Virus record (IMG/VR): IMGVR_UViG_3300035703_000020
Span: 64,001-128,000 of that record
Reading direction: 5' to 3' (one strand)
DNA length: 64,000 nt
Source of the DNA: a virus
In this document: positions 2 to 52,567 of the stretch, in pieces
How positions within the stretch are numbered: position 1 is the stretch's first letter
Layout: each line of letters starts with the position of its first letter
The notes under the pieces: generated by a model
What the model saw: only the letters and a program-made list of their open reading frames with translations
What the model was told of the DNA's origin: nothing
The model's database searches: none
Position numbers and translations under genes: made by a program

Positions 2-49
2 GACATCAGCTACACCGAGGCGCTGAAGCAGGTCCTCTACACGGCCTGA
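2..49 (+). CDS. 3' end of probable prohead protease/scaffold protein (truncated by window)
   Basis: Frame 2 reads DISYTEALKQVLYTA*. An SYxEAL-type terminus just upstream of head genes is typical of Mu gpI-like scaffold C-termini. Confidence 0.4.
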   Translation, partial: DISYTEALKQVLYTA

Positions 50-24904: not shown

Positions 24905-25073
24905 CATCCTCTGGAAGGAGTACTACGCCGCGGTCAAGGCCGGCAACGCCGACCGCGCCAAGCTGATTCTGAAGAAGCTGCACTCGGGCCCCTCCGGGAC
25001 GTCCGGGTCGGTGTACATGCCCAACGGCGCGCAGGCGCCGGGTGGGTGCAAGCGATGCAGGAGGACGATCTGA
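24888..25073 (+). CDS. Hypothetical protein with C-terminal CxxC
   Basis: GGAGG RBS; TGATG coupling to the next gene. Confidence 0.55.
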   Translation: MNNGRDILWKEYYAAVKAGNADRAKLILKKLHSGPSGTSGSVYMPNGAQAPGGCKRCRRTI

Positions 25074-25366
25074 TGGCCGACAGGAACGAGCGGATCATCG
25101 AGCAGAAGAGCAAGCTCGCCGAGAAGGTGCTGAAGGTGGCCGAGCAGGCGCTCGGCGACATCGAGGCGACCATGGGCGAGGCGCCCGTGCGCGACCTGAT
25201 CAGCATCTTCAACTCCTCGATCAAGGTCCACCGCGACCTCATGAGCGACATCGTCGCCATCCAGGAGAGCGAGACGAAGGCCGAGAAGGAGCTGGCCAAG
25301 GACAAGGAGTACACCTCCAAGGTCGACGACCTGCTCAAGAAGCTGGGGCAGGGCAAGCAGGAATGA
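25073..25366 (+). CDS. Putative terminase small subunit
   Basis: 97 aa helical protein (true start MADRNE at TGATG overlap) directly upstream of, and overlapping, terL. Confidence 0.45.
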   Translation: MADRNERIIEQKSKLAEKVLKVAEQALGDIEATMGEAPVRDLISIFNSSIKVHRDLMSDIVAIQESETKAEKELAKDKEYTSKVDDLLKKLGQGKQE

Positions 25367-27051
25367 GGCCCATCATCACGCACGCGTCGCAGCTGGAGGA
25401 GCACTCGAGCTGGCGCGTGTACAAGCGCGGGCTCCGCGAGCTGGAGCTCATGGAGGCGCCGAAGAGCGTGCTGCAGGACTACAGGTTCCGCGCGGCGCGC
25501 TCTTGCTTTCTGGCGTTCGCGGACGTCATGCTCGACGGCAAGCTGCAGGTCGCCGACTTCCACGAGATCATCGGCTCCGCGTTCGAGGACGTCGCCCAGC
25601 TGCGCTACCAGAGGCTGATCGTCAGCTGCGCGCCGCGCTCGGGCAAGTCAATGCTCGCCCAGCTGTTCGTCGCATGGCTCCTCGGCCACGACGAGCAGAC
25701 GCAGCACATCATCGCGTCGTACGGCCAGCTCCTCTCGAACAAGTTCAACCGCGGGGTCAACGGCTACCTCCGCCACAAGCACTTCCAGCGCATCTTCCCC
25801 GAGTGGAGCGGCTTCCACCCGGACTCCAAGTACGACATGCGCGGCGGCGGGTTCATCCTCGCGACGTCCGTCGGCGGGGTGCTCACAGGCTTCACGGCCG
25901 GGACGCCGCACGAGGACAGCCCCGGCGTCGGCGCGATGGTCATCGACGACCCGCTGAAGGGCTCGGACTCCCGCGCCGCGTTCGAGGAGTTAGAGGACTG
26001 GTGGGGCGAGCAGGCGTCCACCCGGCGCACGAACCGCTGGGCCCAGCTCGTCATCGGCACCCGCTTCGGCGAGAAGGACCTCCACGGCCTCCTGATGGAC
26101 GGCGACGGCCTCTGGGACCCCGACGACAACCCGAAGGGCTGGCGGTGGGTGAACATCGAGGCGCTCTGCGAGAACGAGGCGACCGACATCCTCGGCCGGA
26201 AGAACGGCGAGTCGCACTGGCCCGGTAACGGCACCTTCACCGTCGACATGCTCCTCTCGCAGAAGAGGATCATGGGCTCGGACAAGTTCTCCGCGCTCTA
26301 CCAGGGCAGGCCGACGGCGCAGGAGGGCTCGATCGTCAAGGCGGGCTGGATCAGCGTGAAAAGGCCCGAGGACTGCCCGGAGTTCGACATCACCTACCTG
26401 TCGCTCGACACGGCGTTCTCCGAGAAGCAGAGCGCGGACGAAAGCGTGATCGCGGTGATGGGCTACTCGCGCAAGCACAAGGACGACGTCTACGTCCGCG
26501 AGATCATCAGCGGGCGGTGGGGCTTCCCAGACCTGCTCGCCATGCTCGAGCAGACGCGGAAATACTATGGGGCGAAGTTCCTCACGATCGAGCAGGCGGC
26601 GTCCGGCCAGTCGCTGATCCAGATGCTCGAGCGGGAGAGCAAGATACACATCCACGGATTCAAGCCGCTGCGGTCCAAGACGATCCGCCTGCAGACGGTG
26701 TCCCCGCTGTGGGAGGCCGGGCGCGTGCACTTCGTCGAGGGCGCCTGGACGGACGACTTCATTAAGGAGCTCACGGCCTTCCCCTTCGTGCCGCACGACG
26801 ACCGGACTGACGCGGTCGTTTACGGGTTGACGTACTACATGTTCCACCTCGACGGTGGAACGCACGGCGACACGCTCCAGGCGATTGTCGGCGCCAAGGG
26901 CAAGTCACCAGGCCGCGGGCAGCTCACGGGCGAGTTCACGGAGCTGCGGAGCGGCAGGAAGCGCGAGCTGCTGACGCACGGCGAGAGGGCACTGTACTTC
27001 GGCAAAGGCGGCAAGCGGTCGGGGCTCTCGTACGACATAGGCATGGACTGA
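25363..27051 (+). CDS. terL: Terminase large subunit
   Basis: True start MRPIIT (ATGA overlap); Walker A APRSGKS, Walker B VIDDP, IGTR motif, nuclease LDTAF...HDDRTDA. Confidence 0.92.
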   Translation: MRPIITHASQLEEHSSWRVYKRGLRELELMEAPKSVLQDYRFRAARSCFLAFADVMLDGKLQVADFHEIIGSAFEDVAQLRYQRLIVSCAPRSGKSMLAQLFVAWLLGHDEQTQHIIASYGQLLSNKFNRGVNGYLRHKHFQRIFPEWSGFHPDSKYDMRGGGFILATSVGGVLTGFTAGTPHEDSPGVGAMVIDDPLKGSDSRAAFEELEDWWGEQASTRRTNRWAQLVIGTRFGEKDLHGLLMDGDGLWDPDDNPKGWRWVNIEALCENEATDILGRKNGESHWPGNGTFTVDMLLSQKRIMGSDKFSALYQGRPTAQEGSIVKAGWISVKRPEDCPEFDITYLSLDTAFSEKQSADESVIAVMGYSRKHKDDVYVREIISGRWGFPDLLAMLEQTRKYYGAKFLTIEQAASGQSLIQMLERESKIHIHGFKPLRSKTIRLQTVSPLWEAGRVHFVEGAWTDDFIKELTAFPFVPHDDRTDAVVYGLTYYMFHLDGGTHGDTLQAIVGAKGKSPGRGQLTGEFTELRSGRKRELLTHGERALYFGKGGKRSGLSYDIGMD

Positions 27052-27144
27052 TCCCCCTTCACATGCTTAGCCGACGAGCGGGGCATCTTATTCAATAAGT
27101 AAAAGAAGACATGGGTAATATAATGACGTTCGCGTCTTACACTC

Positions 27145-27441
27145 GTGCCGAATAATAGATTCCAGAAGAAACGCACCTTCATGAAGACTCAGCCAATGGA
27201 CGACCGATTCATAGAGGAGCGCATCCCCGTAGAGGCCAAACCACCGCGTAATTACCTTCGTGATCGCGGCAAGCGACTCACTAATCGAGCCACCGGACGC
27301 CGCATAACCGTGCAGGGCGGTGTCGGTTGGAAAGAGATCTGCGAAGAGATCCTCCGCGATGGTACGCATCCGAAATCACTCGCCCAGGTTGCGGCTGGAA
27401 AATGGAAAACTGCCAATGGGTGGGAGGTCGAGGTATTGTGA
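27145..27441 (+). CDS. Hypothetical basic protein (possible endonuclease-associated DNA-binding module)
   Basis: Within the low-GC patch; C-terminal L.QVA.GK.KT.NGW resembles NUMOD1-type modules; start uncertain. Confidence 0.45.
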   Translation: MPNNRFQKKRTFMKTQPMDDRFIEERIPVEAKPPRNYLRDRGKRLTNRATGRRITVQGGVGWKEICEEILRDGTHPKSLAQVAAGKWKTANGWEVEVL

Positions 27442-27875
27442 AACACAAGCACAGAATCACGCCAGGCTACGAAGGTGGTGAGTACGTAGAGGGGAATGTA
27501 GTCGAGCTGACACCGACGCAGCACGCAATGTGGCATTTCGCCGAATGGCAACGCAAAGGCAATTGGCAAGATAGATTAGCGTGGCAGTGCTTGACCGCGC
27601 AATGCACGAGGGGGGAAGCTGTAAGAAAAGCTCAATCAGAAGGCGGTAAACTGGGAGGCAGATCAAGACCATCGGCTGAAGCTAGAGAGAAAATGAGCGC
27701 GTGGCAACGTGGTGAAAGGAGCCCGAGTTACGGAAAATGTAAGAGCGAGGAAACGCGGAGGAAAATTTCGGCAAGTAGCAAGGGAAAGAAACTGAGCGAG
27801 GAAACACGCCGCAAAATAAGCGAGGCCAGTAAAGGTAGAACACCATGGAATAAGGGCTTGCGTCTGCGGGGGTAA
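27438..27875 (+). CDS. HNH homing endonuclease with NUMOD3 repeats
   Basis: GTG start (GTGA overlap); HKHRI.PG..GG.Y...NV..L...HA..H HNH core plus SEETRRKIS repeats and PWNKG. Confidence 0.8.
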   Translation: MKHKHRITPGYEGGEYVEGNVVELTPTQHAMWHFAEWQRKGNWQDRLAWQCLTAQCTRGEAVRKAQSEGGKLGGRSRPSAEAREKMSAWQRGERSPSYGKCKSEETRRKISASSKGKKLSEETRRKISEASKGRTPWNKGLRLRG

Positions 27876-27905
27876 GCTCGGGACATACCTTGGCAAGAAT
27901 ATGCC

Positions 27906-28706
27906 ATGGCAAAAATTAAAGGGGGTGAGCCGCATGATCACCTAGAGTTCGCATTGGTCGAATCTCAAACCTTTGTCACCGATACAATGCCAGCTTGCAA
28001 AGAGCGTCGCAAGGAACGCAGGGCTAACGTGGCCCGCGCCGAGCTCGACACCCACCGCAACATGGACCTCATGCCGTTCATCCCGAGGACGGACAGGCAG
28101 GAGGAGCTCTGGACATGCCTCAACAAGAACACCGTCACGATCGCCGTCGGCCCGGCCGGCGTCGGTAAGACCCTCGTGGCCCTGCACTGGGGCCTCAGCT
28201 CGATCAGGGTCAACCAGATCGACAAGATCTACTACCTGCGCTCCGACGTCGGGGTCATGCACCAGCGGGGCCGCGGCGCGCTGCCGGGCACGATGGAGGA
28301 GAAGATGGCGCCGCTCGTCGGCCCGGTCTTCGACAACCTCAACGTGATCATGCGGTCGCACGGCGCCGCCGAGTACCTCGTCAACAAGAAGGTCGTCGAG
28401 CCGATCCTGCTCGAGGACGTCCGCGGCCGCTCGCTGTCGAACTGCCTGATCGTCTTTGACGAGGCGCAGAACGCCACGCCCGACCAGTGCAAGACCGTGC
28501 TGAGTCGCGTCGGCGAGAACGCCAAGGTGGTCCTCACGGGCGACACCAGGCAGATCGACCTCGACGTGTTCCAGACCAACTGCGGGCTGATCGACGCCTA
28601 CCAGCGCCTCGCGGGGCTCGACCAGGTCGGCAGGGTCCGGTTCACGGCCGACGACATCGTGCGCAACTCGGTGATCGCACACATCCTCAGAAGGTATGAC
28701 GACTGA
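27906..28706 (+). CDS. phoH: PhoH-family ATPase
   Basis: GPAGVGKT Walker A, LPG, RGRSL, DEAQN, GD..QID and DIVRN motifs. Confidence 0.92.
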   Translation: MAKIKGGEPHDHLEFALVESQTFVTDTMPACKERRKERRANVARAELDTHRNMDLMPFIPRTDRQEELWTCLNKNTVTIAVGPAGVGKTLVALHWGLSSIRVNQIDKIYYLRSDVGVMHQRGRGALPGTMEEKMAPLVGPVFDNLNVIMRSHGAAEYLVNKKVVEPILLEDVRGRSLSNCLIVFDEAQNATPDQCKTVLSRVGENAKVVLTGDTRQIDLDVFQTNCGLIDAYQRLAGLDQVGRVRFTADDIVRNSVIAHILRRYDD

Positions 28707-29472
28707 CGCGGACAGGTACGCATCCTCGTTCGACGGTGGGTCCCGGGAGGTTCTCGGGGCCCTCTTCGACTTCGCGGCGTGCGAGAGGCCGGACGGGTCC
28801 CGCTACGGGATCGCGGCCGGCAGGCGGTGCAGGAAGGGCCGCGAGGTCGACATCGAGGGCGCCGAGTGGGAGTACCTCACGAAGGGCAACTACGGGGCCG
28901 TCGAGATCGACCGAAAGCAGGGGCTGATCCGCAAGACCAACGTGCCGGGCCGGAGCTTCGGCGAGCACGAGGCGGAGCTGCAGAGGATGATGGGCGACGC
29001 GGGCCACAGCCCGAAGCTCCACAGGGCGTCCGACAGCGAGATCGTCATGGACCTGGCGCCCGGGAAGACGATCTGGAAGGACTACAGGCCGTCCGAGGGC
29101 GAGAAGGGCGTGAGGTTCAACGAGGCGCAGGCCTCGGCCGCGGCGAAGGCCGTGCTGTTCCTCCACCGCAAGGGCTTCTACCACGGCGACATGCACAGCC
29201 TGCAGTGGATGGTGGACGGCGACAGGCCCATGCTGATCGACTTCGGCCTGAGCGGTAAAACGGCCTCGGACCCGAGGAAGGCGCTGCAGGACTGGACGAA
29301 GGGCGCGGCGTTCATGAACCTCGACGCCGTCGGCGGGGAGGGCGGCAGGCGCGTCCGGGACTACGTCGGGCGGTACAGGGAGGCGGGGGCGTCCAAGCCC
29401 GCGAAGGACAGGCAGGCCAAGCAGGAGCAGGTCGCCAGGGAGTACCTGGACTGGGTCGGCTCGCTCGGGTAA
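28696..29472 (+). CDS. Protein kinase-like protein with N-terminal DFA-C...CRKG module
   Basis: GNYGAV P-loop, IRK, HGDMH, LIDFG; N-terminal DFAACERPDGSRYG...CRKG. Confidence 0.75.
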   Translation: MTTDADRYASSFDGGSREVLGALFDFAACERPDGSRYGIAAGRRCRKGREVDIEGAEWEYLTKGNYGAVEIDRKQGLIRKTNVPGRSFGEHEAELQRMMGDAGHSPKLHRASDSEIVMDLAPGKTIWKDYRPSEGEKGVRFNEAQASAAAKAVLFLHRKGFYHGDMHSLQWMVDGDRPMLIDFGLSGKTASDPRKALQDWTKGAAFMNLDAVGGEGGRRVRDYVGRYREAGASKPAKDRQAKQEQVAREYLDWVGSLG

Positions 29473-29515
29473 ACCCTACGAGGCGGGCTCCCGTCCCGCG
29501 TTAAAGCAGACTGCC

Positions 29516-30124
29516 ATGAGAAAAGACCGCTTCACCGACGAGGCCCTGCGGAACGCGCGGGCGCTCGCCGAACTGAAATACTCCGAGAACCCCGAGGAGC
29601 AGACGGCCTTCGCGGAGGCCTACGACTTCGCGCGCTGCCAGCGGCCCGACGGCACCTTCTACGGCACCAGCGGCCAGTGCCGCAAGGGCCAGGAGGCCGG
29701 CGCCAACAAGAAGCTCAAGACGGACTTCCGCAAGGAGGTGGCCGCCGGCGCCGCCAAGCGCAAGGTGCGGGACGAAAAGATCACGGCCAGGCAGGGCCGC
29801 GACGCCGAGCTGCGGACGCAGATCCGCGACGCGATCGTCGCGCAGCGCCCGATCAAGGCCGAGCTCGACCGCCGCGAGCGGGCCCTCCGCGAGGTGGAGC
29901 GCCGCGTGAAGAAGGACCCCTCGAAGGAGAACAGGGCCAACATGAGGACGCTCGCCGCCGCCGTGCGGGAGAAGGAGCGCGAGTACAACAAGGCCGAGCG
30001 GGAGATCGAGAAGATGGCGCGCGAGCGGGCGCGCCTCGAGCGGCAGCGGCAGCGCGAGCTGATGACCCCGGCCCAGAGGGCCGAGGAGCGCCGCGTCGGC
30101 AAGATCATCAAGGAGCGCGGCTGA
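29516..30124 (+). CDS. DFARC...CRKG-module protein with basic coiled-coil cargo
   Basis: DFARCQRPDGTFYGTSGQCRKG followed by an R/K/E-rich helix. Confidence 0.7.
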   Translation: MRKDRFTDEALRNARALAELKYSENPEEQTAFAEAYDFARCQRPDGTFYGTSGQCRKGQEAGANKKLKTDFRKEVAAGAAKRKVRDEKITARQGRDAELRTQIRDAIVAQRPIKAELDRRERALREVERRVKKDPSKENRANMRTLAAAVREKEREYNKAEREIEKMARERARLERQRQRELMTPAQRAEERRVGKIIKERG

Positions 30125-30717
30125 TGGCCAGGGTACACAGCAACATCTTCGACAACTTCAGCGAGGAGGCCCTCGAGGCGCTGGACTTCGCCCGTTGCCA
30201 GCGGGCCGACGGCTCCTACTACGGGACCTCGGGCCAGTGCCGCAAGGGCAAGGAGGCGGGCGACAAGACAGCTGAGCAAAAGAAAGTTCCAACGGCGAAG
30301 CCCAGCGGAGTAAGCAACGAGCAGGCGATGAAGCTCCGCGCCTCCCTCACCAAGCAGATCGGCGACGCAGCAAAGTCCCGCGACCTGAACAAGACCAACA
30401 ATCTGATGCAGGCGCTCGCGGCCGTCGAAGGTCAGCTCAAGGCCAGAGGCGTTAATCTCGCCGGAGGCGGGGCGATGGCCGAGGCCAAGGCCGGCGAGCG
30501 CGAGATCGCCCGCGGCGAGAAGTTCATCGGCCGCGCCCGCGTCGCGATGAAGAAGCTCTCCAACGAGCGCAATGTCGCCCAGATGCGCCTGCAGATCGGG
30601 CGCATGAACCAGATCGACGAGGCCATGAAGCGCCTCCGCAAGAAGGCTGAGCAGGTCGGCGGGCGGCTCGACGAGCTGACCGGCACCAAGGGCCAGGGCA
30701 AGTACTACGTCCCCTGA
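30124..30717 (+). CDS. DFARC...CRKG-module protein, basic helical cargo
   Basis: True start MARVHS at the TGATG overlap, inside listed ORF 29677..30717. Confidence 0.7.
   Translation: MARVHSNIFDNFSEEALEALDFARCQRADGSYYGTSGQCRKGKEAGDKTAEQKKVPTAKPSGVSNEQAMKLRASLTKQIGDAAKSRDLNKTNNLMQALAAVEGQLKARGVNLAGGGAMAEAKAGEREIARGEKFIGRARVAMKKLSNERNVAQMRLQIGRMNQIDEAMKRLRKKAEQVGGRLDELTGTKGQGKYYVP
30141..30265 (+). repeat. 125-bp exact direct repeat, copy 1
   Basis: Identical to 30739-30863 (CAACATCTTC...GGCGGGCGACA). Confidence 0.9.
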
Positions 30718-30724
30718 GGCCGGC

Positions 30725-31243
30725 ATGGCGATACACGACAACATCTTCGACAACTTCAGCGAGGAGGCCCTCGAGGCGCTGGACTTCGCCCGTTGCCAGC
30801 GGGCCGACGGCTCCTACTACGGGACCTCGGGCCAGTGCCGCAAGGGCAAGGAGGCGGGCGACAGGCCGGCCGAGGCGCCCAAGGGCGACCGGGCGCCGGT
30901 GCTCAAGGACCGCATCGCCAAGGCTAAGGCGTCAGGTGACAAGAAGAAGCCTGAGATCGACGAGAGCAAGCTCTACAGGCTGAATCAGAAGCAGAACCAG
31001 CTGGCCGAGAGAATCGGGCGCGAGCGGTCCATGCTGGCCCGCATGAGCACGGGCAAGGCGGCTGCCGAGCTCCGCAAGCGGCGCGAGGACCGCATCAAGA
31101 AGCTCTCGCGGTCGCTCAAGCGGCTGGGCGAGCTGCGAACCGAGGCGAACAGGCGGCTCGACAAGGGCGCCAGGAAGTCCGGCAGGCCGAGGCCGCTGAT
31201 GGCCCCCAACTGGGGTACCAGCCCCGGGAGACCCACCAAGTAG
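30725..31243 (+). CDS. DFARC...CRKG-module protein, basic cargo
   Basis: N-terminal ~42 aa identical to the previous gene; unrelated K/R-rich C-terminus. Confidence 0.7.
   Translation: MAIHDNIFDNFSEEALEALDFARCQRADGSYYGTSGQCRKGKEAGDRPAEAPKGDRAPVLKDRIAKAKASGDKKKPEIDESKLYRLNQKQNQLAERIGRERSMLARMSTGKAAAELRKRREDRIKKLSRSLKRLGELRTEANRRLDKGARKSGRPRPLMAPNWGTSPGRPTK
30739..30863 (+). repeat. 125-bp exact direct repeat, copy 2
   Basis: Identical to 30141-30265. Confidence 0.9.
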
Positions 31244-31247
31244 GCCC

Positions 31248-31667
31248 ATGAACAACTTCGGACGCATCAACCCCGAGGCCCTCGAGTGGGCCGAGAACCC
31301 CGAGTGGGCCGAGAAGTACGGCGGCATCGACTTCCGCCCGCCCCAGTCCGTGGCTGACGCGGCGGCGCGCGGGCTCGAGCTGCGCAAGAAGACGGGCCGC
31401 GGCGGCTTCAGCACGAAGCAGGCGGCCGCCGAGGGCGTGGGCTCCGGCGTGCAGCGCGCCGCGTCGCTGAAGAACAGGCAGTCGCTGTCGCCGGCGACCA
31501 TCGGCCGCATGGTGAGCTTCTTCGCCCGCCACTCGGCGTACAAGAAGGACCACACGACGGACCCCCCGTCCAACAGCCTCATCTCGTGGCTGCTCTGGGG
31601 CGGCGACCCGGGCAGGGCCTGGGCCGAGAAGGTCAAGGCGCAGATGGACCGGGCCGATGAGAAGTAG
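31248..31667 (+). CDS. Conserved phage protein (head-associated, putative)
   Basis: PP..VA.AA.RGL...RA..L...LS..TI.RM.SFFARH...W.LWGGD.G..WA, a widespread phage domain. Confidence 0.6.
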   Translation: MNNFGRINPEALEWAENPEWAEKYGGIDFRPPQSVADAAARGLELRKKTGRGGFSTKQAAAEGVGSGVQRAASLKNRQSLSPATIGRMVSFFARHSAYKKDHTTDPPSNSLISWLLWGGDPGRAWAEKVKAQMDRADEK

Positions 31668-33096
31668 GCTACCGCAGCACGGCGGCTGGGACACCGGCCT
31701 CGAGGCGAAGGCCAGGGAGGTCCTCGCGCTCCGCTACTCTGAGTCGAACGGGCACCTGGACTACACGATCTGCCAGCGCGCGGACGACTCCCGGTACGGG
31801 ATCGGCGAGGGCAAGGAGTGCCGCAAGGGGAAGGAGGTCAGTCGCGAGGAGGTGCTCACGATGCTGACGCGCGAGGGGCTCGTGCGCACGGACAAGCAGC
31901 GCGAGAGGCTCAGGCAGCTCGACGACAAGACCCTTGCGAAGGTCGCCGACAGGGCGGTCACCCGCGCCGAGCAGGGCACGCTGAAGATCGCCGGGAAGAT
32001 CCAGGAGAAGCAGGGGCTCGACGAGGGGCAGGCCAAGCGCGCCGCCACGGCCGTCCGCGCGCTGAAGTACGACCCGTCCGGCAGCAAGAAGGAGGGCGGC
32101 GCCAACCTGCAGGACCCGGGCGAGGCCGCGAAGTACGCCGAGTTCTACGCGAACAAGCAGGACCTCAAGTACAAGTCGCCCTTCGACACCGACCCCAAGG
32201 TGGTCAAGGCGACGCTAGCGCAGCTCAAGGAGGAGATGCCGGCGTCCGACTACCAGAAGCTGATGACCGCCCTCGGCGGCAAGGGCAGCCCGACCAAGGA
32301 GCAGCTCGATGCCGCCGGTTGGAAGGGCCGCGGCGAGCGCGCCGAGGCCGTGCTCAAGTCCCTCATGGACAATGACTTCAAGGACGTCATGGGCAAGGAG
32401 CTGTCATGGCGCCAGGGCCTGCAGCTCGACCACAAGCGCGCCGGGTCCACCGGCGGCAGCGACCGCCCGGACAACTGGATCTGGATCTCGACCGCGTCGA
32501 ACCAGGTCAAGGGTGGCATGGAGGCCGCGGCCAAGAAGCGCCAGGGCACCGCGGTCGAGAAGGAGGACTTCATCCGCCGCGGGCTGATCGAGAAGCTCCA
32601 GGCCAACGCCAGGATGACGCCCGACCAGGTCCGCGAGGCCAAGGCCGCCGGGTCGATGGGCGCCTCGGCCAAGGCCGAGAAGGCCGCCGCCATGCGCGAC
32701 AATCTCCCGCTGATGACCCCGCAGCAGCGGGCAGAGCGGATCCGGGACGCCAGCATCGACGACCTGAAGGCCATGCTGAAGGGCTCCGTCAACCCGGACA
32801 AGACCAACCCGGCGACCGGCCGCAAGCCGTCCTACCGCCCCGTCCTCAGCGGCGGCGGCGGCGCGCGGGTCCGCAAGGACTACGGCACCGGCCCGCAGAT
32901 GAAGTCGCTGATGCGGCTGCGCTGGGGCGAGAAGCTCGAGGAGAACGACATCAAGAACATCGGCGCCATGCTCGGGGCGTCGACCGGCAGCACCAAGAGC
33001 GCCAAGGACAAGCTCGAGGAGCTCCTGGGCAACTTCCCGCCGACCAGTGGCCTGACGGCCGCCGAGCGGGTCGCGATCATCAAGGAGGCAGGCTGA
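31657..33096 (+). CDS. CRKG-module protein with internal HNH nuclease domain
   Basis: DYTICQRADDSRYG...CRKG; QLDHKRAG..GG.D.PDNW.W.....NQ.KG. Confidence 0.65.
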   Translation: MRSRLPQHGGWDTGLEAKAREVLALRYSESNGHLDYTICQRADDSRYGIGEGKECRKGKEVSREEVLTMLTREGLVRTDKQRERLRQLDDKTLAKVADRAVTRAEQGTLKIAGKIQEKQGLDEGQAKRAATAVRALKYDPSGSKKEGGANLQDPGEAAKYAEFYANKQDLKYKSPFDTDPKVVKATLAQLKEEMPASDYQKLMTALGGKGSPTKEQLDAAGWKGRGERAEAVLKSLMDNDFKDVMGKELSWRQGLQLDHKRAGSTGGSDRPDNWIWISTASNQVKGGMEAAAKKRQGTAVEKEDFIRRGLIEKLQANARMTPDQVREAKAAGSMGASAKAEKAAAMRDNLPLMTPQQRAERIRDASIDDLKAMLKGSVNPDKTNPATGRKPSYRPVLSGGGGARVRKDYGTGPQMKSLMRLRWGEKLEENDIKNIGAMLGASTGSTKSAKDKLEELLGNFPPTSGLTAAERVAIIKEAG

Positions 33097-33098
33097 CC

Positions 33099-35444
33099 AT
33101 GGCTAAACTGACGCAGCACGGCGCCTTCGACGCCGACAGTGAGAGGAGGGCCCGCGAGGAGCTCCTCACCGAATTCACCGAGGGCCGGTCCTGGGCGGAC
33201 GCTTGCGGCGACTGGTCGGCAGAGGACTTCGGCGAGATCGCGGACGGATTCGACTTCGCGCAGCTCTGCCAGAAGCCGGACGGCAAGATCTACGGGACCC
33301 AGGGCCAGTGCCGCAAGGGCACGCCCATCTCCTACCGCCCGGGCGACCGCCAGGGCGACGTCTACAACAAGGGCCGCGCGGCCGGCATGCGGGTCGAGTC
33401 GATCCTCGACGAGAACAAGCGCCTCCGCCTCGAGAAGGGCCTCAAGATGGTCAAGGGGCCCGAGGCGGTCCAGTCGCTCGTCCGCAGGCTGAACCAGCGG
33501 ATGGGCGTGGCGCAGAAGCCCGACGACCAGAAGAACGTCAAGACACCGGAGCAGGCGGCCAAGGCGGCCAAACCTCCCGAGACCCCGTCGCGCCAGGCGT
33601 CCCAGGCGCTGCGCGACCTAGTCAAGGCCGGCGACCGCCTCGACGCCAGGGCCGCGCAGAGCGCCGCAGACCGCCTTCAGGCGGCGAGGGCGGCGGCCGA
33701 GAAGCCCGCGTGGCAGCGGGAGCGGGACGTGATGAACAGGGGCCCAGCGGACCCCGCGGGGCAAGAAAAGCAGCTGAAGTTCAACCTCAGGGTCGCCCAG
33801 AACAAGGGGACGCAGTCGCAGATAGTCAGGGCGCAGAACGAGCTCCGCGAGTTCCGCAAGCAGCAGCGGATGGTCAAGGAGGCAGCCAGGCCAGGGGCCA
33901 AACCCGCGGCCGCCAAGCCCGCGGCTAACGCGGCGAAGGAGAAGCCCTCGATGCAGGTCAACGCGCGGTTCCTGAAGAAGGAGACGACGCAGAAGCTGCA
34001 GGAGTACCTCGACGGCCGCAAGCTGTACGCCTACCAGCGCAAGGCGATCGAGGAGGAGCTCAAGCGCCGCGAGAAGGCCGGCCAGGCCGACGTGCGCGTC
34101 CGCCGCGAGGCCCCCAAGGCAGCTGCCCCGAAGGCGTCTCTCGGCGACAGGGCGGCGCGCAAGGCCGCCATCGACGACGTCAACCGCCAGATCGAGGCCA
34201 TCCGCCGCCGGCGCAACGAGCCGGCCTACCAGAAGCCCGACCAGAAGAAGTTCCTCGACAGCCTGGAGATCGGGCTGGTCCGCCGCCGCATGGACATCGA
34301 GGCCGGCGTCGCCCTGCCGAAGGCCGGCGCGAAGTCCCTCAACGACACCTCAGCCCTGGCGAAGCGCGCGCTCCAGCCCGGCTCCGCCGGCCGCGAGGCC
34401 CGCCTGAAGCTCGGCGAGAAGGTCAGGCTCGAGCGCGCCAAGGCCGGCATCGGCCCGGAGGTCGCGTCGGCCAAGCCTGCCCGCGTCGACCAGAAGCTGC
34501 TCCAGGCTCCCACCGACAAGCTCCAGGCGATCCTCCGCCGGGGCGACCTCGGCGCCGGTCAGCGCAAGAAGATCGAGGAGGAGCTCGGCGGCCGCGGCGT
34601 GACGCCCGCAAGGCCCGTGAAGATCACCGCCGGCATGACCACCGACGCGGCCGTCAAGGCGGGCTGGAAGCTCGACCGCGCGGTCAGGGACTACGACCCG
34701 ATCGCCGTCTACAGCCAGACAGGCAACCAGCTGCTTGCGAAGGGCGCGTTCGGCGCCGCCTACCGCACCGACGGCCCGCCGCCCGGCGTCATCAAGCAGG
34801 GCAAGATCGGCGAGCACGAGGCGGAGGTCTGGCAGAAGCTGCAGGGCACCGGCCGCGTCCCCGAGTTCCACGGCGCCGTCGTCAGCCCGAACATGCGCGT
34901 CGTCGGCTCCGGCTACGGTGGCCACGTGAAGGAGGGCAGCGGCTACCTGGGCATCGGCGAGGCGAAGGGCGTCCCCGTGGCGAAGTACAGCCCGCGCACG
35001 AACGAGGAGAGGAACAAGGTCCTCGAGGAGTACATCCGCGCCCGCCGCGACATCCACCTAGCCGGCGTCGCCCACAACGACATGCACGGCAACAACGTCT
35101 TCTATGACAAGGCGACCGGCAGGATGCAGCTCATCGACTTCGGCCTGGCGCAGCCGAGCTACAAGGCCGCCCTCATGGAGGCCTTCGGCACCAACCAGGG
35201 CGACTGGCAGTCCGAGCGGTTCATCGGGAACTACTCGGGGCGCGGGGGCGAGGCGCCCGCCTACTACCGCTTCCGGCGGAACCAGGAGCGGGTCAACCGC
35301 GCGCTCGAGGAGCTCGACATCGACACCAACCGCATGCGCGGGATGGGCATCCGGAACAAGCCGGAGCACATCGACCGGGTCCTCAACGGGATGTCCGAGC
35401 AGGCCGCCAAGGCGTACGTAGAGATGCTGTACGAGGGCGTCTAG
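33099..35444 (+). CDS. CRKG-module protein with basic linker and C-terminal protein kinase domain
   Basis: True start MAKLTQHG; DFAQLCQKPDGKIYG..GQCRKG; KGAFGAAY, VIK, HNDMHGNN, LIDFG. Confidence 0.75.
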   Translation: MAKLTQHGAFDADSERRAREELLTEFTEGRSWADACGDWSAEDFGEIADGFDFAQLCQKPDGKIYGTQGQCRKGTPISYRPGDRQGDVYNKGRAAGMRVESILDENKRLRLEKGLKMVKGPEAVQSLVRRLNQRMGVAQKPDDQKNVKTPEQAAKAAKPPETPSRQASQALRDLVKAGDRLDARAAQSAADRLQAARAAAEKPAWQRERDVMNRGPADPAGQEKQLKFNLRVAQNKGTQSQIVRAQNELREFRKQQRMVKEAARPGAKPAAAKPAANAAKEKPSMQVNARFLKKETTQKLQEYLDGRKLYAYQRKAIEEELKRREKAGQADVRVRREAPKAAAPKASLGDRAARKAAIDDVNRQIEAIRRRRNEPAYQKPDQKKFLDSLEIGLVRRRMDIEAGVALPKAGAKSLNDTSALAKRALQPGSAGREARLKLGEKVRLERAKAGIGPEVASAKPARVDQKLLQAPTDKLQAILRRGDLGAGQRKKIEEELGGRGVTPARPVKITAGMTTDAAVKAGWKLDRAVRDYDPIAVYSQTGNQLLAKGAFGAAYRTDGPPPGVIKQGKIGEHEAEVWQKLQGTGRVPEFHGAVVSPNMRVVGSGYGGHVKEGSGYLGIGEAKGVPVAKYSPRTNEERNKVLEEYIRARRDIHLAGVAHNDMHGNNVFYDKATGRMQLIDFGLAQPSYKAALMEAFGTNQGDWQSERFIGNYSGRGGEAPAYYRFRRNQERVNRALEELDIDTNRMRGMGIRNKPEHIDRVLNGMSEQAAKAYVEMLYEGV

Positions 35445-35486
35445 CCCGCATAATACCACGAAGAGCACCGACACCCACACCACACC

Positions 35487-35642
35487 ATGGCCAGCAAGTA
35501 CGTGGAGCTGATGACCAAGCGCAAGGAGGCCCTGTTCAGGGGCGACGAGGCCACGGCCGAGAAGCTCCTGACCCTCGCCGAGAAGCTCGCGGAGCGCGGC
35601 AAGGTCTCCGACGACGAATTCCTCGCGGCAGCGTACCTATGA
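35487..35642 (+). CDS. Small hypothetical protein (51 aa, not in ORF track)
   Basis: MASKYVELMTKRKEALF...AAAYL*; ATGA overlap with the next gene. Confidence 0.55.
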   Translation: MASKYVELMTKRKEALFRGDEATAEKLLTLAEKLAERGKVSDDEFLAAAYL

Positions 35643-36250
35643 GCGGCCGAGCACCAGAGCAGCAGGTAGTCGACTACCTCGAGGCGGCCGGCTACAGGCC
35701 CGACTCCATCATCCGCTACCTCGAGGCGCAGGTCGCCCGCGAGTGGGCGTCCGCCGACTTCGCCGAGTGCGGACCGGGCGAGAAGATGACGTTCGGCGTC
35801 TGCCGCAAGATCGGTGAAGCCCCCGCGGCCCAGCCCGCGCAGCAGGGCGCCACGCCGGCGCAGCCCCGGGCTCAACAGCCAGGGCAGAGGGCGGCGGGCC
35901 AGCAGCCCAAGCCGAAGGAGGCGCAGAAGTCCGGCATGGAGGAGAAGCTCGAGAAGGCCGCGAAGGCTCAGGGCTCCGACGCCACCAACAACCGCAAGGT
36001 GGTGATCGACGGCAAGGCGTACGGCTGGGCGATCCAGAACGGCAAGCCGATCATGGTCGAGTGGGGCGCCGTCGCCGGCATCAAGAAGGTCGGGCCAAAG
36101 CAGGCCAAGCCCAAGCGCGGCGGCCGCCGCGGTGGCGCTGGCGGCGACAACGCGGGCCGCATCGCGGGACTGAAGAAGGCGCTCGAGAAGCAGGTCAACG
36201 AGGCCGGGCGCCAGGCCATCCTGAAGCAGATCCAGGAGCTGGGCGGGTAA
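35639..36250 (+). CDS. Protein with degenerate DFAEC...CRK module and basic cargo
   Basis: DFAECGPGEKMTFGVCRKIG followed by a Q/P/A linker and K/G-rich domain. Confidence 0.6.
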   Translation: MSGRAPEQQVVDYLEAAGYRPDSIIRYLEAQVAREWASADFAECGPGEKMTFGVCRKIGEAPAAQPAQQGATPAQPRAQQPGQRAAGQQPKPKEAQKSGMEEKLEKAAKAQGSDATNNRKVVIDGKAYGWAIQNGKPIMVEWGAVAGIKKVGPKQAKPKRGGRRGGAGGDNAGRIAGLKKALEKQVNEAGRQAILKQIQELGG

Positions 36251-36280: not shown

Positions 36281-37012
36281 ATGTCCGGATTCGGGAGCTT
36301 CTCGCAGGAGGCCTACGAGCAGCTGCGGCAAGCATACTCTGACCAGCTCCAGCGCGCAGACGAGATCGAGGAGGCCGGCGTCCAGATCGGCCAGGACAAG
36401 CTCGGCGTCGAGACCGCGCCCGTCCGCAGCGACTGGCTCGACAAGACCGGCCTCTGGAAGTACCCCGACGGCCGCGGCGAGCGCCAGGACGTCGAGCAGC
36501 GGCAGCAGGACCTCCTGGCCGCCCTCCGCGACGAGGACGGTAACCTCCCCGACAACGATGACGACGAGCAGGACCTCGACGCGATGTCCGACGAGGAGAT
36601 CGACGCCCTGATCAGCCAGGTCCTCGACGAGATCGACGGAGACGACGACGAGGAGGAGGAGGAGCCCGGCGGCGACGACCTCGTCTCCAGGATCCTCGAG
36701 GCCATCGGCGACGGCGGGCTGAGCGACGAGGAGATCGACGCCGCGATCGACCAGATCCTGGGCGAGGGCGACGCCGCCGAGGATGACGACGACGAGGGGG
36801 AGGAGAGCGACGAGCCGTCCGCCGACGAGATCGCGTCCAGGATCGCCGAGCTCAGGGCCGAGCTGGCCGCACTGTCCGAGGGCGGCGGGGACGAAGAAGA
36901 GGACGAGGACTACGAGCCCGAAGAAACTCAGGGCGACGAGGAGGAAACCGAACCCGACAACGACACCGACATCGAAGACGAGGAGGTGACCTCCGATGAT
37001 GAACCTAACTGA
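36281..37012 (+). CDS. Highly acidic protein (scaffold/core-like)
   Basis: D/E runs and SDEEIDA.I repeats; N-terminal GSFSQEAY...AYSD. Confidence 0.6.
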   Translation: MSGFGSFSQEAYEQLRQAYSDQLQRADEIEEAGVQIGQDKLGVETAPVRSDWLDKTGLWKYPDGRGERQDVEQRQQDLLAALRDEDGNLPDNDDDEQDLDAMSDEEIDALISQVLDEIDGDDDEEEEEPGGDDLVSRILEAIGDGGLSDEEIDAAIDQILGEGDAAEDDDDEGEESDEPSADEIASRIAELRAELAALSEGGGDEEEDEDYEPEETQGDEEETEPDNDTDIEDEEVTSDDEPN

Positions 37013-38479: not shown

Positions 38480-39094
38480 ATGCCAGTCAAGAAGGGAAAG
38501 GGCTGCGTCGCCGACGTCATGCGTGAGTGGAAGGCAGGCCAGCTCCACTCCGGCGAGGACGGCAAGGTCGTCAAGGACCAGAAGCAGGCGGTCGCCATCG
38601 CCCTGTCGATGTGCGGCGGCAGCCGCGAGAAGGCCAAGTCGTACGAGGAGTACGCCAACAGCCTGGTCGACGAGGTGAAGGACACCTACGCCGAGAAGTG
38701 CGGCTGCAAGCACAAGAAGGGCACGAAGGAGTACGGTGAGTGCAACTGCGGCTGCAAGGGCTGCAAGCGCCGCGCGATGGCCATCGGCTACCCCACCCCG
38801 ACCTTCGGCGAGGAGGAGACGATCGGCATGATCCGCACCCGCCTCAAGGTCATGCACGGCCGCCTGTCCGACATCGAGCGGGCGATCGAGATGGCGATGA
38901 TGCGGGGTAGCGAGATCGAGATGGAGCCCTGGATGATCGACAAGATCACCCTGGCCGCAGACTACCTCTCGGCGGTCGCCGATAACGCCGTGTACGGCGA
39001 CGGCATCGAGGTCGAGATGGAGAACGAGGGCGAGGAGGAGGAGGGCGGTTACGCGCAGTTCCGCCGCTTCGGGTACGCCGAGGGAAAGGGCTGA
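38480..39094 (+). CDS. Multi-module phage protein (DUF6496-like N-terminus, Cys cluster, W..KIT.A.DY module)
   Basis: VMREWKAG.LHSG..GKVV....QAVAIALS; ends at a G GGA AAG GGC TGA slippery site. Confidence 0.6.
   Translation: MPVKKGKGCVADVMREWKAGQLHSGEDGKVVKDQKQAVAIALSMCGGSREKAKSYEEYANSLVDEVKDTYAEKCGCKHKKGTKEYGECNCGCKGCKRRAMAIGYPTPTFGEEETIGMIRTRLKVMHGRLSDIERAIEMAMMRGSEIEMEPWMIDKITLAADYLSAVADNAVYGDGIEVEMENEGEEEEGGYAQFRRFGYAEGKG
39082..39088 (+). other. Putative -1 programmed ribosomal frameshift site G GGA AAG
   Basis: Correctly phased X XXY YYZ heptamer one codon before the stop; the -1 frame is open to 39546. Confidence 0.6.
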
Positions 39095-50631: not shown

Positions 50632-50799
50632 ATGCTGAGACTCCTGGAACTGCTCATCCGTGGCCACATCCACGACTGGGAGACCATTGACCAGCGCAGA
50701 TTCAACTGGTCCAACGACTTCGGGGAGCAGGGGACCTGCACCCGCTTCTACCTCCGCTGTAAGAAATGCGGCTGGATCCGCAAGATCGACTGCAGATGA
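50632..50799 (+). CDS. Small Zn-ribbon-like protein (55 aa, not in ORF track)
   Basis: GAGGTG RBS; H.H.W...CKKCG. Confidence 0.5.
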   Translation: MLRLLELLIRGHIHDWETIDQRRFNWSNDFGEQGTCTRFYLRCKKCGWIRKIDCR

Positions 50800-51020
50800 G
50801 GCACTTCGCGAGCTGGTACTACACCGCCCGCGCGGGCACTATACTATACGGCTGGGCGTGCCTCAGGCTGGCCGTCCGCTACTGGAGGTTCCTCGTGTTC
50901 GGCTCGGACAAGTACGGGCCCCGCGAGGTGGAGGGCGCCAGGATACAGTTCTTCGAGTCGCTCGACCCCAAGTCGATCTCCGACGACTTCATACGCAACA
51001 ACCACCTGAGACTGCAATGA
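50796..51020 (+). CDS. Small hypothetical protein
   Basis: ATGA overlaps at both ends. Confidence 0.45.
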   Translation: MRHFASWYYTARAGTILYGWACLRLAVRYWRFLVFGSDKYGPREVEGARIQFFESLDPKSISDDFIRNNHLRLQ

Positions 51021-52567
51021 CGTCCAAGCTCAACAGGATAGCGATAGTCGGCGGCGGGTCCGCTGGCTGGATGTCCGCGGCGACGATGGTCAGGGCGCTG
51101 CCGGACGCCGAGGTCGTCATCATCGAGAGCCCGGACCACCCGGTCGTCGGGGTCGGCGAGAGCACGCTGGGATCGATTAGGGACTGGACGAATTGGCTCG
51201 GGCTGGACGAGGACGAGCTCATCCGCGGCACCGACGCGTCGATCAAGCTCAGCATCCGGTTCACCAACTTCGAGACCGAGAGCTCCGGGTCGTTCCATTA
51301 CCCGTTCGGGCAGGTCGTCCTCCCCGAGAACCACGACAATGGCACGTCCGACTGGTACCTCCGCAAGGCCATGGACCCGTCGCTGCCGGTCCAGGACTAC
51401 GCCAGGACCTACTTCCCGAACATGGCGCTCGTGGAGGCCAACCGGGTCTCCCGCGACGCGCGTGCACTCGACGGGTTCCTCTACAGGAGGGACACCGCCT
51501 TCCACTTCGACGCGATCAAGTTCGGCCAGTGGCTCAAGACCGGCTACTGCCTGCCGCGCGGGGTCGAGCTCATCCAGGACTCCGTCGAGCACGTCAGCAC
51601 CTCTGACGGCGCGGTGACGTCCCTCCGCCTGAGCCGCGGCGGCGAGGTCTCGGCCGACCTGTACATCGACTGCACGGGGTGGAAAGGGCTGCTCATAGGC
51701 GAGGCACTCGGCGTCGGCATGCGGCCGTTGAGGGACCTGCCCAACAACAGGGCCATCGCCACGCGCGTGCCCTACGTCGACAAGCGCTCGCAGCTGGTGC
51801 CGTACACGGACTGCACCGGGCTCAAGAACGGGTGGGTGTGGAACATCCCGCTGTGGTCGCGCATGGGCATCGGCTACGTGTACAGCGACGCGCACACGTC
51901 CCACGACGGCGCGCTCTCGGAGCTCGAGGGCTACCTGGCCGGGCTCGGCGTCAGGGATTTCGACAGCCTGGAGTTCCGGCCGATCGAGATCGGCACGGGG
52001 CTGCGGCACGAGATCTGGAGCTCCAACGTGGTCGCCATAGGCCTGTCGGCGGGGTTCATCGAGCCCCTCGAGAGCAACGGGCTCTTCACCGTGCACCAGT
52101 TCCTGCTCAAGCTGGCGACGCTCGTCCAGCGCGGGGACGTCAACCAGTGGGACCGCGACTGCTTCAACTGGGCGGCGAGGCGCCAGTTCGAGTCGTTCGA
52201 GGAGTTCGTCGCGCTCCACTACGCCCTCAGCCGCCGGGACGACTCGGAGTACTGGCGCGACGTGACCGAGATGAGCCGCGCGTCCAACCTGGCGGCGAGC
52301 GTCGGCGACTACATGTTCTACGCCGACCAGCGGCTGGTCTCCAAGCGCTTCGACCCCGTGGCCGGCATGCAGTGCATCGCGACCGGGATGAACCGCTTCC
52401 CCCTCAGCGAGATCGAGCTGCTGCCCATCTTCGAGATGCACGGCGTGGATCCACGCCACAACGCCGCCGCCTACGATAGGGCGGCGGCTGTGCAGAGGGC
52501 TCGGTGGGACTCCGCCGCCGCATCCCTCCCCACGCTGCACGAATTCCTGGAGAGAATCCACAGATGA
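51017..52567 (+). CDS. Flavin-dependent (tryptophan) halogenase-like protein
   Basis: True start MTSKLN; GGGSAG FAD motif, GVGEST, catalytic-position K in ASIKLSIRF, WVWNIP, FIEPLESNG. Confidence 0.9.
   Translation: MTSKLNRIAIVGGGSAGWMSAATMVRALPDAEVVIIESPDHPVVGVGESTLGSIRDWTNWLGLDEDELIRGTDASIKLSIRFTNFETESSGSFHYPFGQVVLPENHDNGTSDWYLRKAMDPSLPVQDYARTYFPNMALVEANRVSRDARALDGFLYRRDTAFHFDAIKFGQWLKTGYCLPRGVELIQDSVEHVSTSDGAVTSLRLSRGGEVSADLYIDCTGWKGLLIGEALGVGMRPLRDLPNNRAIATRVPYVDKRSQLVPYTDCTGLKNGWVWNIPLWSRMGIGYVYSDAHTSHDGALSELEGYLAGLGVRDFDSLEFRPIEIGTGLRHEIWSSNVVAIGLSAGFIEPLESNGLFTVHQFLLKLATLVQRGDVNQWDRDCFNWAARRQFESFEEFVALHYALSRRDDSEYWRDVTEMSRASNLAASVGDYMFYADQRLVSKRFDPVAGMQCIATGMNRFPLSEIELLPIFEMHGVDPRHNAAAYDRAAAVQRARWDSAAASLPTLHEFLERIHR

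What the first reader, a model, noticed from the sequence alone, without database searches (positions are those of the whole stretch)
28696..36250. Array of polymorphic phage effectors sharing an N-terminal DFAxC...YG...CRKG targeting module
Seen in sequence: seven genes in one block carry the same ~25-aa two-Cys module near their N-terminus. The copies are 28696 DFAACERPDGSRYGIAAGRRCRKG, 29516 DFARCQRPDGTFYGTSGQCRKG, 30124 and 30725 DFARCQRADGSYYGTSGQCRKG, 31657 DYTICQRADDSRYGIGEGKECRKG, 33099 DFAQLCQKPDGKIYGTQGQCRKG, and a degenerate 35639 DFAECGPGEKMTFGVCRK. Most copies are preceded by a short acidic leader (F/W-x-x-E-A-L or ..ARE.L..YSE) and followed by an unrelated cargo: kinase, basic coiled coil (three), HNH nuclease, long basic linker plus kinase, or a K/G-rich domain. 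Established knowledge: T4 internal proteins share a capsid-targeting sequence, and MuF polymorphic toxins use a constant head-targeting N-terminus with variable C-termini. Inference: this is a constant-leader/variable-cargo system that loads enzymes into the capsid for co-injection, for host takeover or anti-defence. I know of no named family for this module.
Basis: partly seen in the sequence, partly recalled or inferred. Interest (0 to 1): 0.92.

Follow-up and report, generated by a model that had tools for sequence, protein, structure and literature searches.

The report
Shared Cys-loop tag on cyanophage effectors
A cyanobacterial virus carries a row of genes whose proteins all begin with the same small, undescribed two-cysteine tag followed by different enzymes or basic tails; this is most likely a set of proteins loaded into the virus head for injection, but that has not been shown.

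Summary
Six genes on the + strand between 28696 and 35444 carry a clean copy of one unit of about 40 aa. The unit is an acidic leader with an aromatic-small-Glu tripeptide, then DF-x-R-C-(13-15 aa)-C-R-K-G. A profile of the unit finds these six in the 150-kb genome (E 1e-14 to 1e-23) and nothing else. The seventh, "degenerate" copy (gene at 35639) is not detected.

The unit is a real, unnamed domain. It matches 950 protein clusters in metagenomes, no Pfam, PHROG or NCBIfam model, and no cellular genome apart from six short contigs of metagenome-assembled genomes (MAGs). Related contigs carry 5-10 copies each. Every contig I checked belongs to the lineage of Synechococcus phage S-CBWM1.

The cargoes vary: kinase-like, ADP-ribosyltransferase, NMNAT-like, HNH-like and coiled-coil domains. 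About 80% of the proteins are basic. Cargoes turn over between phages whose terminases are 92% identical.

Loading into the capsid followed by injection is the best reading (about 0.45). The evidence for it is circumstantial. The unit can also sit inside a protein or occur twice in one protein, so it is more than an N-terminal signal.

Other first readers in this scan noted the same stretch of this genome. I found no note of it on other DNA.

The parts
28696..29472 (+). P0001, 258 aa: leader + Cys-loop module (DF..CRKG at 28768-28839) + small kinase-like cargo
   Evidence: 92% identical ortholog in relative G001
29516..30124 (+). P0002, 202 aa, pI 10.2: long leader + module (29624-29689) + basic coiled-coil cargo
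   Evidence: ortholog in G001 only about 40% identical and tandemly duplicated
30124..30717 (+). P0003, 197 aa, pI 9.9: leader + module (30184-30249) + basic cargo
   Evidence: the G001 ortholog has its cargo duplicated in tandem
30725..31243 (+). P0004, 172 aa, pI 10.4: same leader + module (30782-30847) with a different basic cargo; no ortholog in the nearest relatives
30141..30265 (+). Exact 125-bp direct repeat, copy 1 (copy 2 at 30739-30863); covers leader + module and ends at the module/cargo junction
30739..30863 (+). Exact 125-bp direct repeat, copy 2
31248..31667 (+). P0008, 139 aa, no Cys module but a leader-like N-terminus. All-helical domain that other phages fuse to portal, prohead protease, MuF and many enzymes. 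In relatives it is fused in front of module + HNH-like cargo.
31657..33096 (+). P0005, 479 aa: leader + module (31759-31830) + HNH-like cargo; overlaps the end of P0008 by 11 nt
   Evidence: 40% identical ortholog in G001 with a diverged Cys loop
33099..35444 (+). P0006, 781 aa: long leader + module (33252-33320) + long basic linker + C-terminal kinase-like domain
35639..36250 (+). P0007, 203 aa, pI 9.8: look-alike two-Cys stretch, not recognised by the module profile
38480..39094 (+). DUF6496 protein with a Cys-rich stretch where relatives have DUF6496 + canonical module; possible diverged relative of the module
25042..28706 (+). Upstream context: large terminase, NUMOD3 homing endonuclease, PhoH. 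Same strand, and the PhoH stop overlaps the first module gene.

Best explanation
The block is an array of head-loaded, injected proteins that share one portable unit.

Shown:
- The unit is about 40 aa: an acidic leader with an aromatic-small-Glu tripeptide, then a beta-hairpin loop closed by two invariant Cys (DF-x-R-C ... C-R-K-G).
- The unit sits in front of interchangeable, mostly basic cargoes: small kinases, ADP-ribosyltransferases, NMNAT-like and HNH-like enzymes, and coiled coils.
- It occurs 5-10 times per genome in S-CBWM1-like cyanomyoviruses and essentially only in viruses.
- The arrays gain, lose, duplicate and diverge cargoes between near-identical phages.

Inferred:
- The proteins are made late, together with the terminase and tail-fibre genes.
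- The unit brings them into the procapsid.
- The Mu-I-like prohead protease may cut after the leader's Glu, as the T4 and phiKZ proteases cut their internal proteins. In two-module proteins this would release each piece.
- The basic cargo travels with the DNA and enters the host with it. There the kinases, ADP-ribosyltransferases and nucleases act before phage genes are expressed.
- The role of the Cys loop itself is unknown. It could be a docking surface, a disulfide or a metal site.
For: - Real, conserved domain: 950 clusters at E<=1e-3 and 203 at E<=1e-10.
- Variable cargo: kinases in 12 of 149 representatives, ADP-ribosyltransferases in 4-5, an NMNAT-like fold, DUF6496.
- Virus-only: six hits in 185,579 species genomes, all on short MAG contigs.
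- Arrays of 5-10 copies in every related contig searched. These contigs share a TerL 56-92% identical to the window's.
- Uneven divergence against a relative with 92% identical TerL: 92-96% for P0001 and P0008, 40% for P0002 and P0005, and one gene gained on each side.
- Exact 125-bp module repeat.
- Family members are basic: median pI 9.6 and 80% above 8.5, against a median of 5.7 for the genome's ORFs. T4 internal proteins are likewise 'highly basic' and share only a targeting sequence (PMC8442874; PMC3012670).
- T4 Alt, an ADP-ribosyltransferase, is packed in the head and injected. Kinases, ADP-ribosyltransferases and nucleotidyltransferases are typical of phage polyvalent proteins predicted to be packaged (PMC5512222).
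- The block lies in a tight same-strand string TerL-PhoH-array-tail fibres with no sigma-70-like promoter or + strand terminator.
- P0008 sits inside the array and in relatives is fused directly in front of the module. Its domain is recurrently fused to Portal_Mu, Mu-like protease, XkdF protease and MuF. In isolated phages it heads the scaffold/protease-position gene between portal and capsid genes. Its fold matches viral proteins named prohead protease or portal.
- The aromatic-small-Glu tripeptide is in 76% of upstream windows against 3% of controls, and is enriched in the protease-scaffold protein, 5 seen against 1.3 expected.
Against: - There is no direct evidence that any member is in a virion.
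- The module is not always N-terminal. About 20 of the 150 best hits have two modules, some have it after DUF6496 or after the P0008 domain, and Cys1 lies beyond residue 70 in 28 of 151 cases.
- In the only isolate, S-CBWM1, one copy is on an NMNAT (gp39) among tRNA and phosphatase genes. The other (gp165) is annotated 'hypothetical', not 'virion structural protein', although that label is used elsewhere in the record. The basis of that label is unknown to me.
- In a 256-kb S-CBWM1-like scaffold the copies lie among RNR, sigma-factor, HSP20 and psbA genes.
- No module-bearing protein among the listed hits is fused to a portal, protease or MuF domain.
- The link through P0008 is guilt by association.
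Confidence: 0.45

Rival explanations
1. Intracellular adaptor. The module is a small docking domain that brings many different phage enzymes and basic proteins to one common target inside the infected cell: DNA or the nucleoid, the ribosome, RNA polymerase, or a phage-made hub. It is not a packaging signal, and the proteins act after expression and are never in the virion.
For: - The module occurs inside proteins and twice per protein, as a binding domain would.
- It sits on a metabolic enzyme (NMNAT, S-CBWM1 gp39) among non-structural genes.
- The copies in the S-CBWM1-like scaffold lie among RNR, sigma-factor and psbA genes.
- The loop's polar residues (R, R, D, Y, K) are nearly invariant across phages with 50-71% GC, which suggests one very conserved ligand such as nucleic acid.
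- The cargoes are overwhelmingly basic.
Against: - In the window lineage the array lies between terminase and tail-fibre genes.
- It is tied to the P0008 domain, which elsewhere is fused to portal and prohead protease.
- The leader with its aromatic-small-Glu tripeptide has no obvious role in a plain binding domain.
- No known DNA- or protein-binding fold was matched.
Confidence: 0.3
2. Structural or regulatory cap. The Cys loop is a redox- or metal-dependent element (a disulfide-closed hairpin or a shared metal site) that controls the folding, oligomerisation or activity of the attached protein, for example in response to the light/dark redox state of the cyanobacterial host. It has no trafficking role.
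For: - The two Cys are the only fully invariant residues apart from glycines.
- The diverged ortholog in G001 and the look-alike in P0007 both keep the Cys pair while the loop changes.
- DUF6496 proteins carry Cys-richer versions of the loop.
- AlphaFold gives a hairpin with pLDDT about 82.
- The host is a cyanobacterium: the genome has psbA/psbD-type genes.
Against: - This does not explain why unrelated enzymes and simple coiled coils all need the same cap.
- It does not explain the conserved acidic leader.
- It does not explain the clustering in arrays next to packaging genes.
- Two Cys alone do not make a standard zinc site.
Confidence: 0.15
3. No shared function. The repeats are only the trace of recent duplications of one gene start, spread by recombination.
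For: The exact 125-bp repeat shows ongoing duplication or gene conversion.
Against: The other copies in the window are only 61-84% identical at the DNA level, yet the protein motif is kept. The motif is conserved in 950 clusters across phages of 50-71% GC.
Confidence: 0.02

Closest known systems
T4 internal proteins (IPI, IPII, IPIII, and Alt) with the capsid targeting sequence
   Same: Unrelated, highly basic proteins and an ADP-ribosyltransferase share only a short N-terminal unit that ends in Glu. The genes are diverse and fast-evolving. The proteins are injected with the DNA (PMC3012670, PMC8442874, PMC5512222). Some leaders in this family (M-K-x-T-Y-x-x-F-S-E) resemble the T4 sequence in style.
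   Different: The T4 signal is 10 aa, has no Cys loop and is strictly N-terminal. Here the conserved core is a folded two-Cys hairpin of about 22 aa that can lie inside a protein or be repeated. The head is of the Mu-portal / Mu-I-protease type, not T4 gp21. There is no significant sequence similarity, and packaging is untested.
Phage polyvalent proteins and MuF-fused polymorphic toxins (Iyer et al. 2017, PMC5512222)
   Same: The same repertoire of conflict enzymes (protein kinases, ADP-ribosyltransferases, nucleotidyltransferases, HNH), cassette-like variation, and predicted delivery with the DNA. The neighbour P0008 is a domain found in such multidomain proteins.
   Different: In those systems many domains are strung in one polypeptide, anchored by MuF, portal or protease. 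Here the domains are encoded as separate genes, each with its own small tag, and no MuF, portal or protease domain is fused to a module protein.
Ejection and inner-body proteins of phiKZ-like and SPN3US phages
   Same: Families of paralogous head-internal proteins are processed by the prohead protease after Glu at small-residue motifs. Here an aromatic-small-Glu tripeptide is enriched in front of the module and in the scaffold-protease protein.
   Different: No sequence relation. Cleavage is not shown here. The phage is a 150-kb cyanomyovirus, not a jumbo phage.
Encapsulin cargo-loading peptides
   Same: A short portable tag directs diverse enzymes into an HK97-fold shell.
   Different: Those tags are C-terminal linear peptides in cellular compartments. 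There is no homology, and no binding to the capsid protein was tested here.

Membership tests
T4-type capsid targeting sequence system | A short N-terminal sequence shared by otherwise unrelated proteins | tested here: met
   Alignments A1, A2 and A4. The cargoes are unrelated. However, the unit is not always N-terminal.
T4-type capsid targeting sequence system | Sequence homology to the T4 signal (PMC8442874) | tested here: not met
   Only a loose likeness in some leaders (one search compared). The conserved core here is the Cys loop, which T4 lacks.
T4-type capsid targeting sequence system | Cleavage by a gp21-type (Peptidase_S77) prohead protease after Glu | tested here: inconclusive
   No S77 match in the genome, but the control genomes gave no signal either. 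The protease present is Mu-I-like, at 24.8 bits against a cut-off of 25.2. Cleavage cannot be tested in silico. Enrichment of the Glu motif is only suggestive.
T4-type capsid targeting sequence system | Presence of the proteins in proheads and virions | not testable with these tools
   The original S-CBWM1 paper is not in the library.
MuF polymorphic toxins / polyvalent proteins | MuF (PF04233), portal or protease domain in the same polypeptide as the effector domain | tested here: not met
   None is present in the eight window proteins or in 149 representatives. None appears in the precomputed Pfam list of 120 hits.
MuF polymorphic toxins / polyvalent proteins | Effector repertoire of kinases, ADP-ribosyltransferases, nucleotidyltransferases and nucleases, with cassette-like variation | tested here: met
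Zinc ribbon / zinc knuckle | Four metal ligands (Cys/His) in two knuckles | tested here: not met
   Only two Cys are invariant, and there is no conserved His.
Any curated family (Pfam, PHROGs, NCBIfam, PDB) | A model or solved chain that covers the module | tested here: not met
   In the PDB there is only a chance 11-residue match to a hairpin of FGF21. Foldseek found nothing.

The most novel reading that the evidence does not exclude
The leader plus Cys loop is a new, portable signal for head loading and ejection. It lets a lineage of cyanophages inject a changing set of separately encoded enzymes (kinases, ADP-ribosyltransferases, an NAD-salvage enzyme, nucleases) and DNA-coating proteins. 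This would be a non-covalent, cassette-based counterpart of the polyvalent proteins. The prohead protease would cut multi-module precursors into pieces at the aromatic-small-Glu sites.
Probability: 0.4. Interest if true: 0.85.

Novelty: new variant of a known kind. Interest (0 to 1): 0.7.

Why it matters
If these proteins are packaged, this would be the first defined protein-injection system in cyanophages. It would also give a sequence handle (one HMM) that pulls out about a thousand candidate injected effectors from metagenomes, including kinases, ADP-ribosyltransferases and an NAD-pathway enzyme that may counter host defences or retune photosynthetic hosts at the moment of entry. The tag could serve to load foreign proteins into capsids. 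The idea can be tested now because S-CBWM1 and its host are in culture and it carries two members. Whatever its function, the module is a widespread and strongly conserved viral domain that no database names.

Tried and rejected
- Near-identical DNA in isolated phages: none.
- tblastn of two module proteins against 50,697 phage records: only S-CBWM1.
- Pfam, PHROGs and NCBIfam for the module: nothing.
- PDB by sequence profile: only a chance hairpin match in FGF21.
- Foldseek of the module model against the PDB: no match at E<=0.001.
- ESM Atlas by features and by structure: no useful neighbour.
- Complex prediction of two module copies with zinc: 'no answer', score 0.02 against a mark of 0.42, controls not run. 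This counts neither for nor against self-association.
- Peptidase_S77 search in the genome: no match, but the control did not ring, so it is uninformative.
- The search for related loci with the 42-row alignment on genome contigs failed for lack of a conserved stretch. I replaced it with a DNA pattern scan.
- The original S-CBWM1 paper and any virion proteome were not available.
- Literature search for the motif strings: no paper.
- Stand-alone modules: the short hits (64-101 aa) look like fragments from contig ends, so they give no evidence for a cargo-free form.
- P0008 fold against the PDB by Foldseek and by VIA-align: no convincing match, best Z 4.8.
- I considered a RiPP-like leader/core reading and a CP12-like redox peptide. 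I dropped both because the module is followed by 100-700 aa of cargo and shares no motif with those families. This is reasoning only.
Full report
**What the window is.** The window is bases 64001-128000 of a 149,878-bp virus record with direct terminal repeats.
- The genome carries two photosystem reaction-centre genes.
- Its head genes lie just upstream of and across the window start: Mu-type portal, a 704-aa Mu-I-like protease-scaffold fusion, a short Cys-rich MuF-like protein and an E-family capsid protein.
- The nearest isolate is Synechococcus phage S-CBWM1, with 53% portal identity and 56% TerL identity.
- The window therefore comes from a high-GC cyanomyovirus of the S-CBWM1 lineage.

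**The observation.** The seven ORFs are present as described.
- Six of them carry the motif DF-x-R-C-(13-15 aa)-C-R-K-G within their first 30-60 residues. The genome has no other copy.
- A profile built from 42 modules finds exactly these six in all six reading frames (E 1e-14 to 1e-23). It does not find the seventh, "degenerate" copy in the gene at 35639.
- The leader belongs to the unit. An aromatic-[S/G/A]-Glu tripeptide lies in 76% of the 22-aa windows in front of a module, against 3% of control windows.
- Two neighbouring genes share an exact 125-bp stretch (30141-30265 = 30739-30863). It covers leader and module and stops at the cargo junction.

**It is a real, unnamed domain.**
- A profile of the six modules, run against 1.84 billion representative proteins, gives 950 clusters at E<=1e-3 and 203 at E<=1e-10.
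- Every name attached to these proteins is "hypothetical protein".
- Pfam, PHROGs and NCBIfam have no model for it.
- The PDB holds no relative.
- No paper in the library contains the motif.
- A DNA pattern for the core finds only six places in one genome each of 185,579 prokaryote species. All six are short MAG contigs of mixed taxonomy with 50-71% GC, and most likely mis-binned phage DNA.
- AlphaFold2 with 42 sequences predicts a short helix (the leader) followed by a beta-hairpin, with pLDDT about 82 over the Cys loop.

**Distribution.**
- Five related viral contigs hold 5-10 modules each, mostly in arrays.
- The three closest contigs share the gene order TerL-PhoH-array.
- The two more distant contigs and S-CBWM1 have TerL 56-64% identical to the window's.
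- S-CBWM1 has two canonical copies. One is gp165, two genes upstream of the tail sheath. The other is gp39, an NMNAT among tRNA and phosphatase genes.
- Its DUF6496 protein gp153 carries diverged Cys loops.
- A 256-kb S-CBWM1-like scaffold has eight modules in seven genes, next to RNR, sigma-factor, HSP20 and psbA genes.

**Cargo.**
- Among 149 representatives, Pfam finds protein-kinase-type domains in 12, ADP-ribosyltransferases in 4-5, DUF6496 in 4 and a cytidylyltransferase-like (NMNAT) fold in 1. Most have no family.
- Relatives add an ADP-ribosyltransferase at E 7e-13 and a protein built as module-NMNAT-module-coiled coil.
- In the window, P0001 and P0006 are small Bud32/RIO-like kinases supported by hits below threshold.
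- P0005 has a weak match to the HNH region of IscB.
- P0002, P0003 and P0004 are basic coiled coils.
- The family is strikingly basic. Median pI is 9.6 and 80% of members lie above 8.5. For a crude ORF set of the genome the median is 5.7 and 23% lie above 8.5.

**Turnover.** I compared the window with a relative whose TerL is 92% identical.

| Window protein | Ortholog in the relative |
|---|---|
| P0001 | 92% identical |
| P0008 | 96% identical |
| P0006 | 69% identical |
| P0003 | about 74% identical, with its cargo duplicated in tandem |
| P0002 | 40% identical |
| P0005 | 40% identical, Cys loop diverged but Cys pair kept |
| P0004 | none |

The relative also has an extra module-kinase gene that the window lacks.

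**The module is not strictly N-terminal.**
- Cys1 has a median position of 27, but it lies beyond residue 70 in 28 of 151 cases.
- About 20 of the best 150 hits have two modules, each with its own leader. Examples are module-domain-module-kinase and DUF6496-module-coiled coil-module. These are uninterrupted ORFs on long contigs.
- The unit therefore behaves like a repeated domain, or like the start of each piece of a polyprotein.

**The neighbour P0008.** This 139-aa protein has no Cys loop and sits inside the array in all close relatives.
- Its helical domain (pLDDT 82.5) has at least 900 longer homologs. In these it is fused to 2H phosphoesterases, poly(A)-polymerase-type nucleotidyltransferases, InPase, ADP-ribosyltransferase, and also to Portal_Mu, Mu-like protease, XkdF protease and MuF.
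- In isolated phages it forms the N-terminus of the gene in the scaffold/protease position, between the portal and capsid genes.
- In the BFVD library its fold matches proteins named prohead protease or portal.
- In three relatives the P0008 domain, the Cys module and an HNH-like cargo form one protein of 580-604 aa. The window's overlapping P0008 and P0005 are therefore a split form of that protein.
- This ties the array to a domain with a strong head association, but only by association.

**Most likely mechanism (confidence 0.45).** The proteins are made with the late genes. The block sits in a tight same-strand string from the terminase to the tail fibres, with no promoter-like or terminator-like site on that strand. 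The proteins enter the procapsid through the shared unit. They may be trimmed after the leader's Glu by the Mu-I-like protease; the same tripeptide is over-represented in the protease-scaffold protein, 5 seen against 1.3 expected. They then travel with the DNA into the host.

The known parallels are these:
- T4's internal proteins are highly basic, very diverse and share only a 10-aa targeting sequence that is cut off after Glu (PMC8442874; PMC3012670).
- T4 Alt is an injected ADP-ribosyltransferase.
- The polyvalent proteins carry kinases, ADP-ribosyltransferases and nucleotidyltransferases and are predicted to be packaged (PMC5512222).

Every step after "made with the late genes" is inference.

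**Rivals.**
- An intracellular docking domain for a common target (0.30) fits the internal and double modules, the NMNAT cargo and the non-structural neighbourhoods in S-CBWM1-type genomes.
- A redox or metal cap (0.15) fits the invariant Cys pair, but it does not explain the leader or the arrays.
- A pure duplication artefact is excluded by the conservation at the protein level.

**Novelty.** The domain is new to the databases and to the searchable literature. The logic of a constant tag with variable cargo is known from T4 and from MuF and polyvalent systems, so I class this as a new variant of a known kind. Membership in those families fails on their defining features: there is no homology to the T4 signal and no fused MuF, portal or protease domain.

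**What did not work.** The one complex job (two modules plus zinc) gave no answer. Fold and Atlas searches of the tiny module were empty. The S-CBWM1 virion data could not be read.

Noticed in passing
window 31248-31667 (P0008): Stand-alone copy of an unnamed, all-helical domain of about 115 aa that is 55-67% identical across at least 900 longer phage proteins. In those it is fused, at N-terminal, middle or C-terminal positions and sometimes in tandem, to 2H phosphoesterase, poly(A)-polymerase-type NTase, InPase, ART, Portal_Mu, Mu-like and XkdF proteases, and MuF. There is no Pfam model and no PDB fold match.
   Followed up: partly
window 31248-33096: P0008 and P0005 overlap by 11 nt and together correspond to single fused proteins (580-604 aa) in relatives. 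This is a split or fused gene pair.
   Followed up: partly
window 38480-39094; L007:1081-1704 (S-CBWM1 gp153); L052:3206-3766: DUF6496 proteins of this lineage carry the canonical module, repeated diverged C-x9-10-C loops, or a seven-Cys stretch at the same position. This suggests a wider superfamily of Cys-loop modules.
   Followed up: partly
window 27327-27875: NUMOD3 homing-endonuclease gene in a low-GC patch (59% against 66-68% around it), inserted between TerL and PhoH. It is absent from the relative with 92% identical TerL, where PhoH follows TerL directly.
   Followed up: partly
window 27906-28706: PhoH is only 54% identical to that of the relative whose TerL and first module gene are 92% identical. 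This points to a mosaic replacement.
   Followed up: no
window 36281-37012: Extremely acidic protein (pI 4.1, 38% Asp+Glu) with internal repeats, directly after the array of basic proteins. No family match.
   Followed up: no
L051:6936-9050 (genome 61935-64049, running into window 1-49): 704-aa protease-scaffold fusion with a long Lys/Gly/Asp/Glu-rich low-complexity middle. It is enriched in aromatic-small-Glu tripeptides.
   Followed up: partly
window 50660-52567: 635-aa protein with a strong match to a PHROG annotated as tryptophan halogenase (E 8e-127). This is an unusual auxiliary gene for a cyanophage.
   Followed up: no
genome 142724-145659 (outside the window): Two Photo_RC (psbA/psbD-type) genes, which mark the virus as a cyanophage.
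   Followed up: partly
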